Positions 12,731 through 64,000 of a stretch of 64,000 nt of DNA are shown here, in pieces (position 1 is the first letter of the stretch; each line of letters starts with the position of its first letter). Both the position numbers and the translations under genes were made by a program. The DNA lies in NCBI GenBank assembly GCA_951406725.2, contig OX597814.1:94302001-94366000 (forward strand), given 5' to 3'. The stretch comes from Octopus vulgaris (Eukaryota). The notes under the pieces were generated by a model. It saw only the letters and a list, made by a program, of their open reading frames with translations. It was not told where the DNA came from and searched no databases.

Positions 12731-12874
12731 CTATGAATCACACGACAATCTCCAAGCGTTCAACCTGCGAAGCTTGATTAGAGTACTGAAGCCTTTTGTA
12801 ATGTGTTTACACACCATTTGCTTGACGCGCTTTCCACGTGATCGGTTACGAACATACTCCACATGAAATACAGC
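12731..12874 (-). CDS. GH114 gene coding exon 4 (AVFHVEY...[10 protein letters not shown])
   Basis: CTCTTTTTCAG|GCT GTA TTT CAT GTG GAG TAT ... TCA TAG. 144 nt, phase 0. Supplies the conserved VF.VEY and [13 protein letters not shown]-terminus of GH114. This frame is not in the ORF track. Confidence 0.92.
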   Translation of the reverse strand, partial: AVFHVEYVRNRSRGKRVKQMVCKHITKGFSTLIKLRRLNAWRLSCDS

Positions 12875-15800
12875 CTGAAAAAGAGAAAAAACACATTTAT
12901 TAATATACATACAAATACAGCTGAGAAAATACGAAAGTCATGCCAGTGAAAGAAGAAAATTCTATCAAGATACAAGAGAAAATAATACACGTGTAGATGA
13001 GGTTAAGAGATTCATCTACTTGCGCAGCAACATTTTTAACAGTGGTGACACAGAGCGATACGTACTGAGCAAAATTGGAAAAGCAGGGTTTATCTTTAGG
13101 AGGCTCAGAAACATCTGACAATCTAATCAGATGAATCTAAGAAGCAAGATACTTTTGTATAATTCTTTGGTCATCCCGATTGCCATCTATGCCAGCAGAA
13201 CGTGAAAGATGACGTTAGGAATCGTCCAGAAGCTTGATGTATTCCACCAGAGGTTCTTCCGCAAAGCTCTTAATATCTCTTGGCACTTACAGAATAACCA
13301 ATGAATAAATCTATGGGGAAACTAAACAGAAAATGCTATGCATCGAAGTGAAAGAGCGTCGCCTGAAGTTTCTTGGACATGTCTTTAGAATGCCATCCAC
13401 AAAACAGCCACAACTCTCCCTCGATTCGAAGCCTGAAGTGGGGAAAGGAAACGTGGACGACTATTGATAACATGGAATCGACTATTGATAACATGGACAG
13501 TTCTGAAGTATCTATTTGCAGAGAGAAGTTGAGCTGGGACGATGCCAAATCTCTTGCAGAAGATTGCAGAGGATGGATATCGTTTGCTGTTGTCTGATGG
13601 ACTAAAATACATATGCTTTCCTACAAATACAAACATACATACATACATACATACATACATACATACATACATACATACATACATACATATACAAGCTTTA
13701 AAAGAAAATAAAGATTTGTACATCCTTGAGCTATTAAGGTGTGAAATATGCTTAGCAGGAGGATTTTTCCTTAAAGATGAAACAATAATTTCGAAGATCG
13801 TGATCAGATCTATACACAACGTTATCAGTGAAACGTCGCAGTTAAGACTCAAATAGCCACACACTGGTTAAGTGCATTGAAGTTTTTAATAATCCGTTAA
13901 GGCTTTTATCTTTAAATTAACAAAAAAGCATCCCTTGCAACAGTAGATCGAATAAACTTTACAACTAATCTAGACCGTGCCATATGTAGAGGAACAAAGA
14001 TATATCAACCTCTCGGTATTTAAACTCAATGATTGATATAAGAATATTTGATTTCTCTTCGATCGAACCACTTTAAGCAAAACTTCTGATTATTACGGTC
14101 AAGTGCTAGCAAGAATTGAGTTAAATAAATTCTTTTTATTACCCTGGCGCGAGCAACAAACCACGAAATTATGATGTCATTCAGAAGCTTCCATACATCA
14201 ATCTCCATGTTTTACACCTACTGATGCGGGGGGCAGGATCGTAGGGACAGTCACCTCACATATCTCCTCCAAAGGCTGGATCTCCAAGCATGATGAATTG
14301 CTTCGAATATCATCGAACTAATTTGTTTTTAGTCTACCCCAAGATCTTCTGCCCGTTGGTTCGGCTCTACCCCTAGAACTTCTGCAGGTTGCTCGGCCAG
14401 GATACTAAAGACTTCTTAGTGCCAAACAGGAGGTACTTTTCACCCTGAAACAAGCACTTCACAATACAATGGACATAACTACAGAAAATAACTTAACGAA
14501 TTTATTGCTGAAACTTGTTTACCCCACCCTCCTCCGTGTTTAAATTATTATCTTCTATATAAAGTAAAGTTAATACACAAATTAAAACACGGAAAAGAAA
14601 CTGTAAGAATGTGTACGTTTAGGAAATTGAAGATGTGTTGGGGCACTCACACATAAAACACACTCATGAACACACACACACACACACACACACACACACA
14701 CACACACACACACACACACACACACACACACACACACACACACACACACACACATATATATAAAGTTGGCAAAAAGTCACCTGACAGTAAATTAAAACCA
14801 TCCAATTCCAAAATTAAAACCAAAAACTATTTTATACGAGACTTTGCTAATAAATAGACAAATAATGTTAAAAAAAAACCGGTGATTTTAACTTACAACA
14901 TTCAAGTATTAAACATTCATAACTGGAATGAATAAATGAAATTGAACATCACGTATTTATGGAATTTTTTATTTACCGTTGGGTCAAGACTGTATATATA
15001 TATATATATATATATATATATACATATATATTATATATATATATATATATATATATATACATATATATTATATATATATACCGTGAGGTGGGGTAAATGT
15101 GCGCCTCATGAGGTAACTGTGCATCCATGTGAAATATTTTTTAGAAATTGTCATAACATACAGTAGTGATGTTGGTCTTTTCTTTATAGGTGCTGATGTG
15201 CTCACGATTGTTCCAGTGATTTTGATGTGAAAAAACGATACCGGTGAGCGACATTAAGAGACCTTTGGGCAGGCTTGAAAATCGAATAGCAATAAATTCT
15301 GATCTAGTGAACATCCCGAAAATGAAAACACTAAGGGTAAGCTACCTATGATAAAATTGATCTAGAGCATTGATTTCTGGCACATCTGTGTTAAATATCC
15401 TGAGGTAGATTGACACTAATTTATATGTCTCTAGATGAAAGTATTAGTCAGTAATATTCTATTACAATAAGGTGGGGCTTTTACAATAGCACTCATTTGC
15501 TGCAGCCACGTGATGTTGCGTTCTATGCACCAATGAAAGCAGCATGGAGGAAGTTTCATACTGAGTGGAAGATGGGTGATGGAAAATTCTACACAACCTT
15601 GCCAAAGATTCATTTCCCAAAGCTGCTATTCGCCCTCCTGGGCAAAAATGGAACACAAAAAAATAATATACTGTAAATGCCTTTCGAACAACATGCTTCT
15701 ATTCACTTAACAGACAGAAAATTCTTAGCAAGAATTCAAAGCCAGAATCGTCATCACATCTCGTAAGTCTGATTATTATTGAACATCTGATGCAACTTCA

Positions 15801-63668: not shown

Positions 63669-64000
63669 TTTAAATCTGTTGAAAAAACAAAAGTGAATAT
63701 ATATATATATATATATATATATATATATATATATATATATATATATGTATATATATATATATGTGTGTATGTATGTATGTATGTATGTATGTATTGTGTG
63801 TATTTGTGTGTGTGTGTATGTGTGTGTGTGTGATATGTGTGTGTGTGTGATATGTGTGTGTGTTTGACAGATATACGTTCATATATACATATATGCAAAC
63901 AAGCAATGTATCGAAATAAATATACTCTCTATTTCGTCGGTACACTATCCTCTTTCTAGAAGACAGACGTTCATAATATATGAGGATGTATATGTATATG

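What the first reader, a model, noticed from the sequence alone, without database searches (positions are those of the whole stretch)
12731..63675. Intact, intron-containing, secreted GH114 endo-alpha-1,4-galactosaminidase in an animal (probably octopus) genome
Seen in sequence: four exons spread over 51 kb splice into an uninterrupted 264 aa protein with a signal-peptide-like leader, seven Cys and three N-glycosylation sequons (NST, NLS, NRS). It has D140 (EPDNID) and E198 (LTESC). Established: characterised GH114 enzymes are bacterial or fungal. Aspergillus fumigatus Ega3 uses D189/E247, the same 58-residue spacing, to cut alpha-1,4-galactosamine polymers and disrupts galactosaminogalactan and Pel biofilms. 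Inference: animals are not known to make this substrate, so the gene may be a domesticated horizontally acquired anti-biofilm or digestive enzyme, for example in egg coating, skin mucus or saliva. Spliceosomal introns filled with host SINEs argue against contamination.
Basis: partly seen in the sequence, partly recalled or inferred. Interest (0 to 1): 0.9.

Follow-up and report, generated by a model that had tools for sequence, protein, structure and literature searches.

The report
Mollusc-wide bacterial-type slime-cutting enzyme
An octopus chromosome carries an intact, spliced gene for a microbial-type sugar-cutting enzyme that chitons, snails and bivalves also have; it was likely gained from bacteria by an early mollusc and is predicted to be secreted and to cut the galactosamine slime of microbial biofilms.

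Summary
The gene model is right. Four minus-strand exons give a 264-aa GH114 protein, identical to an uncharacterised Octopus database entry. It is single-copy, and the exon 2-3 joint stands in contigs of 4 of 4 runs laid. The predicted fold matches Aspergillus Ega3 (TM 0.86), with both catalytic residues and the lid tryptophan in place.

It is not an octopus oddity: relatives occur in a chiton, gastropods, bivalves and Argonauta. The limpet protein was already seen, unrecognised, in a shell proteome and mantle secretome.

The best-scoring non-animal relatives are solitary bacterial enzymes, often Myxococcota (51-62% identity, against 37-51% for other eukaryotes). An old bacterium-to-mollusc transfer is therefore the best reading, but it is not proven. 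Mollusc monophyly has modest support, a clade of all eukaryote rows was rejected in only 1 of 5 tests, no ascomycete was in the trees, and absence from other animals is not established.

Activity is untested; a fungal GH114 failed on Pel. The octopod protein is unusually basic and changed near the active site. Ten paper searches found no report of animal GH114, and this scan's notes show none.

The parts
63463..63675 (-). First exon inside the window: acceptor at 63675, ATG at 63668; leader (about aa 1-24) and first barrel strands, aa 1-69
   Evidence: loose end of a spliced contig in run X12
54117..54412 (-). Exon with the beta3 insertion (W105 = Ega3 W154) and the nucleophile D140, aa 69-168
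   Evidence: spliced contigs in 4 of 4 runs
48641..48789 (-). Exon with the acid/base E198 and sequon N173, aa 168-217
12731..12874 (-). Last coding exon, aa 218-264 and stop; basic C-terminal helix; first AATAAA/ATTAAA signal near 12515
   Evidence: loose end in run X12
54413..63462 (-). Intron of 9050 bp, phase 2, GT-AG; LINE RT fragment at 58730-59452 and microsatellites
48790..54116 (-). Intron of 5327 bp, phase 1, GT-AG; skipped exactly in contigs of four runs
12875..48640 (-). Intron of 35766 bp, phase 0, GT-AG; LINE fragments, a fourfold tandem array at 19600-25139, a transposon-like remnant near 34819-36734

Best explanation
This is an intact, spliced, single-copy octopus gene for a GH114 barrel protein with relatives in four mollusc classes; it was likely acquired once from a bacterium by an early mollusc, and its product is predicted to be secreted and to cut alpha-1,4-galactosamine polymers of microbial biofilms. 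Shown: gene structure, splicing, family, catalytic residues in alignment, spread across molluscs, protein-level detection in a limpet shell. Inferred: the leader is cut after about G24; the glycosylated, disulfide-bonded barrel binds a cationic GalN chain in an acidic cleft closed by W105; D140 is the nucleophile and E198 the acid/base in a retaining endo cut, as in Ega3. Inferred role: loosening Pel- or GAG-type matrix on mantle-derived and other wet surfaces, or in grazed food. My odds by step: real gene 0.99, active glycosidase 0.9, GalN-polymer substrate 0.7, bacterial origin in the mollusc stem 0.65, microbial target 0.7.
For: Gene and splicing. One locus in the genome. Model pLDDT 95; best PDB match Ega3, TM 0.86, rmsd 1.6 A. 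D140, E198 and W105 fall on chain positions 148, 206 and 113 of 6oj1, one constant offset of 41 from D189, E247 and W154 as given in PMC12054363. D53, D55, E84, D89, E108, D112, D135, D140, D143, D193, E198 and E205 are kept in all 16 mollusc rows. Named animal hits in three top-120 lists are all molluscs. Seven mollusc proteins are 51-62% identical to their best bacterial loci and 37-51% to their best of seven other eukaryote rows. Ega3 scores 277 bits on the mollusc profile, while the 120th hit of the database search scores 358. A 14-residue EY-to-C spacing is in 15 of 16 mollusc rows, 16 of 30 Myxococcota loci and 0 of 4 readable other eukaryote rows. Molluscs form one clade at 87/88 once long branches are dropped. 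Molluscs plus Abeoforma is rejected, p 0.004. The all-eukaryote tree is rejected under C20, p 0.025, and is in 0 of 1000 interim bootstrap trees. No Pel or GAG synthesis family lies within 3 kb of 24 close bacterial genes. No Agd3 deacetylase match in the octopus genome, where the control rang. The limpet orthologue has 5 peptides in shell matrix and a mantle-secretome contig.
Against: A clade of molluscs plus the other eukaryote rows was not rejected in four tests: p 0.71, 0.71, 0.71 and 0.23; in the one rejection that tree had been optimised under another model. No ascomycete, green or brown algal row was in any tree. Mollusc monophyly was 50/58 with 48 rows and 292 of 1000 in the unfinished C20 bootstrap; FastTree split the cephalopods off. 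No donor clade has starred support. The hit lists show 120 of up to 7995 hits, so other animals may lie below the cut. Fusarium GH114 showed no activity on Pel (PMC12054363). The octopod domains have pI 8.6-8.8 against a bacterial median of 4.3, and cephalopods changed N197, E199, W253 and D254. The shell signal is 0.0022% of protein, in a list with many housekeeping proteins.
Confidence: 0.45

Rival explanations
1. Old eukaryotic gene, or one passed on from another eukaryote: GH114 was in early eukaryotes or came through a fungus or protist, was lost in most animals and kept in molluscs. The enzyme function could be the same.
For: GH114 is in chytrids, an ichthyosporean, Plasmodiophora, Hondaea and Diplonema and, per papers, in brown algae, chlorophytes and an oomycete table. 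The all-eukaryote clade was not rejected in 4 of 5 tests. Atlas features rank an Ascomycota cluster first, at 0.96 against 0.95 for bacterial clusters.
Against: The eukaryote rows do not follow the species tree: Abeoforma pairs with Hondaea and a chytrid with Plasmodiophora, both at 100/100. PMC13345962 reports a Labyrinthulea-Teretosporea transfer highway (abstract). In the constrained tree the long eukaryote branches join the long cephalopod stem, as long-branch attraction would. Molluscs are much closer to bacteria by identity.
Confidence: 0.25
2. The enzyme remodels a glycan that molluscs make themselves (mantle, periostracum, mucus or egg matrix), either an unknown cationic alpha-GalN polymer or another alpha-galactosyl or alpha-GalNAc chain.
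For: It is kept in four classes with very different diets and present in limpet mantle and shell. Cephalopods show changes beside the acid/base, two sequons kept in 4 of 4 rows, and a basic surface in octopods.
Against: I know of no such animal polymer (own knowledge, not searched directly). No Agd3_CE match in the genome. No Spherulin4 match either, but that control was silent. The cleft acids typical of GalN binding are unchanged.
Confidence: 0.2
3. Two independent gains: cephalopods got their own bacterial copy, apart from the one in chitons, gastropods and bivalves.
For: The cephalopod stem is long (0.44-0.65). Cephalopods fall apart from other molluscs in FastTree and in the interim best C20 tree. 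Non-cephalopod molluscs are one clade in 943 of 1000 bootstrap trees, all molluscs in only 292. Octopus is as similar to the best bacteria (51-53%) as to other molluscs (median 50%).
Against: Monophyly is recovered at 87/88 without long branches and at SH-aLRT 84 in the C20 quick tree. It is not rejected by AU tests (p 0.93, 0.82, 0.18). Cephalopods share states with other molluscs that are rare in bacteria, such as N149 and G152.
Confidence: 0.1
4. Contamination or an assembly artefact.
For: The protein is 50-54% identical to environmental bacterial proteins.
Against: It has canonical introns with host repeats and spliced contigs in four studies. Orthologues are 98% and 86% identical in O. 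bimaculoides and Argonauta, and named orthologues lie on chromosome-scale contigs of other molluscs.
Confidence: 0.01

Closest known systems
Ega3 of Aspergillus fumigatus (CAZy GH114, PDB 6OJ1/6OJB), endo-alpha-1,4-galactosaminidase
   Same: Fold (TM 0.86, rmsd 1.6 A, 41% identity); catalytic Asp/Glu and lid Trp aligned.
   Different: Ega3 belongs to the GAG synthesis cluster (PMC10485009). The octopus gene stands alone, no Agd3 match was found in its genome, the protein is basic, and it differs beside the acid/base (TES for NEQ).
Solitary bacterial GH114 proteins of Myxococcota and relatives (e.g. Enhygromyxa salina ENSA5_27980)
   Same: Highest non-animal identity, 51-62%; same 14-residue C-terminal spacing and FSTLIK-WDL-type motif.
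   Different: Most have lipoprotein-like leaders with low-complexity stalks and are acidic. None is characterised as far as the searches showed. No single lineage is a supported sister.
Uncharacterised mollusc database entries: Octopus LOC115215683 and LOC106879613, Lottia LOTGIDRAFT_163670, Crassostrea LOC111134234 and others
   Same: This very protein (P0121) and its orthologues; some UniRef names already say 'GH114 TIM-barrel domain-containing'.
   Different: Only automatic labels. The Lottia shell-proteome table calls it 'similar to hyaluronidase; DUF297', and a mantle-secretome table lists a 2-gene family 'endo alpha-polygalactosaminidase' with function unknown. I found no discussion of origin or function.
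Microbial-type glycoside hydrolases gained by animals through gene transfer (GH13 amylases, beetle and nematode cell-wall enzymes, rotifer genes)
   Same: A foreign-type secreted carbohydrate enzyme that gained introns and was kept (search listing only; otherwise own knowledge).
   Different: Those mostly digest plant, algal or fungal structural or storage glycans. This family's known substrate is a biofilm polymer.
GH191 (TM1410), GH166 (PelA hydrolase), GH135 (Sph3)
   Same: Related barrels with galactosaminidase activity.
   Different: Much lower similarity: TM 0.69-0.75, 11-19% identity; TIGR01370 19 bits against a cut-off of 181.

Membership tests
GH114 | Full-length match to Pfam PF03537 above cut-off | tested here: met
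   274 bits, profile 1-231 of 231, cut-off 27
GH114 | Modified (beta/alpha)8 barrel with beta3 insertion, as in Ega3 | tested here: met
   Model pLDDT 95; Foldseek TM 0.86/0.90 to 6oj1. A predicted model, not a solved structure.
GH114 | Catalytic Asp nucleophile and Glu acid/base | tested here: met
   D140 and E198 align with Ega3 D189 and E247; invariant in 40 of 40 rows
GH114 | Aromatic lid residue on the beta3 insertion (Ega3 W154) | tested here: met
   W105
GH114 | Electronegative substrate cleft | tested here: inconclusive
   Conserved acids are kept, but the domain pI is 8.8 and W253/D254 are replaced by Arg; no surface potential was computed
GH114 | Endo-alpha-1,4-galactosaminidase activity | not testable with these tools
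   Needs an assay; one fungal member was inactive on Pel
GH191 / TM1410 family | TIGR01370 above cut-off | tested here: not met
   19 bits against 181
Bacterium-to-animal gene transfer | Integrated in the host chromosome with spliceosomal introns and transcribed | tested here: met
Bacterium-to-animal gene transfer | Closest non-animal relatives are bacterial | tested here: met
Bacterium-to-animal gene transfer | Nested in a bacterial clade with eukaryote monophyly rejected | tested here: inconclusive
   Rejected in 1 of 5 AU tests; no starred sister; no ascomycete or algal rows
Bacterium-to-animal gene transfer | Absent from other animals | tested here: inconclusive
   No named non-mollusc animal in three top-120 lists, but these show 120 of 1816, 4615 and 7995 hits
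Single origin in Mollusca | Shared intron positions across classes | not testable with these tools
   No other mollusc genome was available to read

The most novel reading that the evidence does not exclude
A bacterial biofilm-cutting enzyme entered the mollusc stem lineage before chitons and shelled molluscs split, and became a phylum-wide secreted mantle enzyme. It is either an animal-encoded galactosaminidase defence against Pel/GAG biofilms and fouling, or the remodelling enzyme of a cationic galactosamine polymer made by molluscs themselves, with a retuned basic version in octopods.
Probability: 0.35. Interest if true: 0.78.

Novelty: new member of a known kind. Interest (0 to 1): 0.58.

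Why it matters
GH114 enzymes break up Pseudomonas Pel and Aspergillus GAG biofilms at nanomolar levels (PMC10485009). A 2024 paper lists the family for brown algae, chlorophytes, fungi and bacteria and names no animals (PMC11468063). A copy kept across the mollusc phylum would be a rare, very old transfer that can be tested with one recombinant protein. It would point to an overlooked way in which molluscs control biofilm on mantle and shell or digest it, which matters for shellfish health and fouling. It would also give animal-adapted, glycosylated candidates for biofilm-dispersing enzymes. If the substrate is the mollusc's own, it would reveal an unknown animal glycan. The limits: animals gaining microbial carbohydrate enzymes is a known theme, and databases already carry the domain label.

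Tried and rejected
First splice attempt was one base off and was corrected. Rfam: no match in the window. Metagenome scan gave 80 continuous, intron-free matches; they were not used in trees. ESM Atlas confirmed the family only and listed no animal cluster; it covers only large clusters.

The careful C20 tree of 77 rows did not finish; its interim bootstrap file was used and marked as such. One AU test, molluscs plus Siphonaria plus Plasmodiophora, was left unfinished. The tree dropped 9 rows: four other eukaryotes, four long or oddly composed prokaryote-type rows and one redundant mollusc row. The tree dropped the 4 cephalopods and 7 redundant rows.

No listed run is on record as RNA and tissues are not given, so expression site and level are unknown. 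The exon 1-2 and 3-4 joints rest on loose ends in one run and on database models. The Ega3 primary paper is not held; its ligand-binding residues other than D189, E247 and W154 were not checked. Octopus mucus and ink proteome supplements: no hit in the held parts. Shipworm supplement: no hit. Searches were swamped by general mollusc papers and are uninformative. Neighbour scan: 85 of 94 ORFs of at least 170 aa were scanned, the 9 left out overlapping the GH114 gene in another frame or strand. No complex prediction was run.

Full report
1. The observation. Joining 63668-63463, 54412-54117, 48789-48641 and 12874-12731 gives 795 bases and a 264-aa protein without stops. It has Cys at 25, 76, 134, 200, 206, 239 and 262, sequons at 95, 173 and 227, D140 and E198. 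All donors are GTAAGT and all acceptors end in CAG after a pyrimidine tract. Each exon matches the next piece of Pfam GH114, which chance would not give. The protein is identical to P0121, held as a hypothetical or uncharacterised protein of Octopus vulgaris and O. sinensis. Longer database isoforms begin with MSPVL; the matching upstream exon lies about 6.4 kb beyond the window end. Protein and family searches of the genome found this locus only.

2. It is transcribed and spliced. Of 24 listed runs, 20 hold at least half of the sampled words of exon 2; none is on record as RNA, 14 of the 20 are guessed to be. I laid 4 of those 14, one per study. All 4 have a contig that jumps from 48789 to 54117 with no mismatch, and in X12 the loose ends read exon 4 and exon 1. 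Tissues are not given.

3. It is a GH114 protein with intact machinery. The AlphaFold model has mean pLDDT 95 and matches Ega3 best: TM 0.86, rmsd 1.6 A. In the sequence alignment to 6oj1, D140, E198 and W105 meet chain positions 148, 206 and 113. One offset of 41 turns these into D189, E247 and W154, which PMC12054363 names as nucleophile, acid/base and lid residue (section 3.4 read; further passages). Twelve conserved acidic positions are kept in all 16 mollusc rows. GH191 is excluded by score. The leader is a hydrophobic helix ending in V-L-G before C25, which fits a signal-peptidase site by eye; no predictor was run.

4. It is a mollusc gene, not an octopus gene. Named relatives are O. bimaculoides (259 of 264 identical) and Argonauta (226 of 264). 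They also include the chiton Liolophura (two genes), the gastropods Lottia, Patella, Gigantopelta, Littorina and Pomacea, and the bivalves Crassostrea, Mytilus, Pinctada and Mizuhopecten. Two unnamed proteins from short contigs (P0006, P0007; 64-67% identical) group with the octopods at 100/100; that they are other cephalopods is inferred. No named non-mollusc animal appears, but the lists show only 120 of 1816, 4615 and 7995 hits, and several well-known molluscs are missing from them too, so absence elsewhere is not shown.

5. Origin. For transfer from bacteria: the other top hits are prokaryote-type, and 30 of the 80 best genome loci are Myxococcota. Seven mollusc proteins are 51-62% identical to their best bacterial loci and 37-51% to their best of seven other eukaryote rows. 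Ega3 scores 277 bits on the mollusc profile, below the 358 of the 120th database hit. A 14-residue spacing near the C-terminus is shared by 15 of 16 mollusc rows and 16 of 30 Myxococcota loci, and by none of 4 readable other eukaryote rows. Against a clean proof: GH114 occurs in Plasmodiophora, Hondaea, Diplonema, two chytrids and the ichthyosporean Abeoforma. These rows pair across the species tree, in line with the transfer highway reported in PMC13345962 (abstract and one passage), and molluscs plus Abeoforma alone is rejected (p 0.004; with a chytrid p 0.0002). But a clade of molluscs plus all other eukaryote rows passed four AU tests (p 0.71, 0.71, 0.71, 0.23) and failed one (p 0.025 under C20, with a tree optimised under LG+G4). 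It was in 0 of 1000 interim C20 bootstrap trees. No ascomycete or algal row could be included. Mollusc monophyly ranges from 50/58 to 87/88 without long branches; the cephalopod stem is long and unstable. My reading is one old gain from a bacterium, about 0.65, donor unresolved but Myxococcota-like.

6. How it most likely works. By family knowledge, a retaining endo-glycosidase: a cationic GalN-rich chain binds the acidic cleft, the W105 loop closes, D140 attacks and E198 protonates. The close bacterial genes sit alone, with no Pel or GAG synthesis family among 85 neighbouring ORFs in 24 loci, which suits foraging enzymes aimed at others' slime. The octopus genome gave no Agd3 deacetylase match and no Spherulin4 match (control silent), weak evidence that it does not make the polymer. 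The Lottia orthologue was detected by 5 peptides (33.8% coverage, 0.0022% of protein) in shell matrix, labelled 'similar to hyaluronidase; DUF297' (PMC4094399 supplements). It also matches a mantle-secretome contig in PMC5400390 (supplement), whose Table S6 lists a 2-gene family 'endo alpha-polygalactosaminidase'. So mantle secretion is documented for a limpet, at low level. Control of biofilm on exposed surfaces, or digestion of grazed biofilm, is inferred. Cautions: a Fusarium GH114 was inactive on Pel. Cephalopods changed N197 and E199 beside the acid/base and W253 and D254 near the C-terminus, and gained a sequon at N173 where 81% of the prokaryote-type rows have Gly. The octopod domains are basic (pI 8.6-8.8; under 1% of 492 prokaryote-type rows exceed 8). 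The octopus substrate may therefore have shifted.

7. What is in print. Ten searches were run. The targeted ones (GH114 with mollus-, polygalactosaminidase with mollus-, galactosaminidase with Octopus, GH114 with horizontal and animal) listed no paper on an animal GH114; two were uninformative. PMC11468063 places the family in brown algae, chlorophytes, fungi and bacteria (passage). PMC8778642, PMC4316629, PMC10485009 and bioRxiv 10.64898/2026.06.07.730663 were seen as passages only. Subscription papers and bioRxiv supplements were not searchable. This scan's notes hold several prokaryotic GH114 findings and none in animals.

8. Verdict. This is a new, apparently unremarked animal branch of a known enzyme family, phylum-wide in molluscs, probably of bacterial origin, with an easy and decisive biochemical test. 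Interest 0.58.

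Noticed in passing
window 19600-25139: Four head-to-tail copies of a ~1.38-kb unit with a LINE reverse-transcriptase fragment, 99.6-99.9% identical, running into a longer LINE piece at 25155-26141. A very recent tandem expansion or an assembly artefact.
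   Followed up: partly
window 54720-54961, 32469-32693, 60780-61017, 10084-10260, 31550-31718: A recurrent ~240-bp repeat, 80-93% alike between copies, with very high summed depth in transcript-like runs; SINE-like, not classified.
   Followed up: no
window 34819-36734: Broken transposase-like frames with a weak Spin-doc zinc-finger hit; hAT-type by my recollection of such sequences, not shown by a call.
   Followed up: no
protein residue C25 (window about 63594-63596, minus strand): An extra Cys right after the predicted signal cleavage site is kept in 4 of 4 cephalopod-clade rows and lies at a similar place in two other mollusc rows. It could be lipidated or form a link to a partner; untested.
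   Followed up: no
PMC4094399 supplement 1, row 6: The Lottia peptides map to 14 gene models on one scaffold, with ids suggesting up to three neighbouring loci; a tandem expansion in limpets is possible. Liolophura has two genes.
   Followed up: no
P0310, P0313, P0376, P0306: Multi-domain GH114 proteins of Abeoforma, Hondaea and Diplonema form a strongly supported long-branch clade, a likely eukaryote-to-eukaryote transfer.
   Followed up: partly
G000:C1 near 94372087 (beyond the window end): Upstream exon with an in-frame ATG that adds about 7 residues. The database 8-residue variant needs a second acceptor that I could not see in this genome.
   Followed up: partly
window 40208-41413: Very AT-rich tandem array of about 275-bp units, 87-91% alike.
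   Followed up: no
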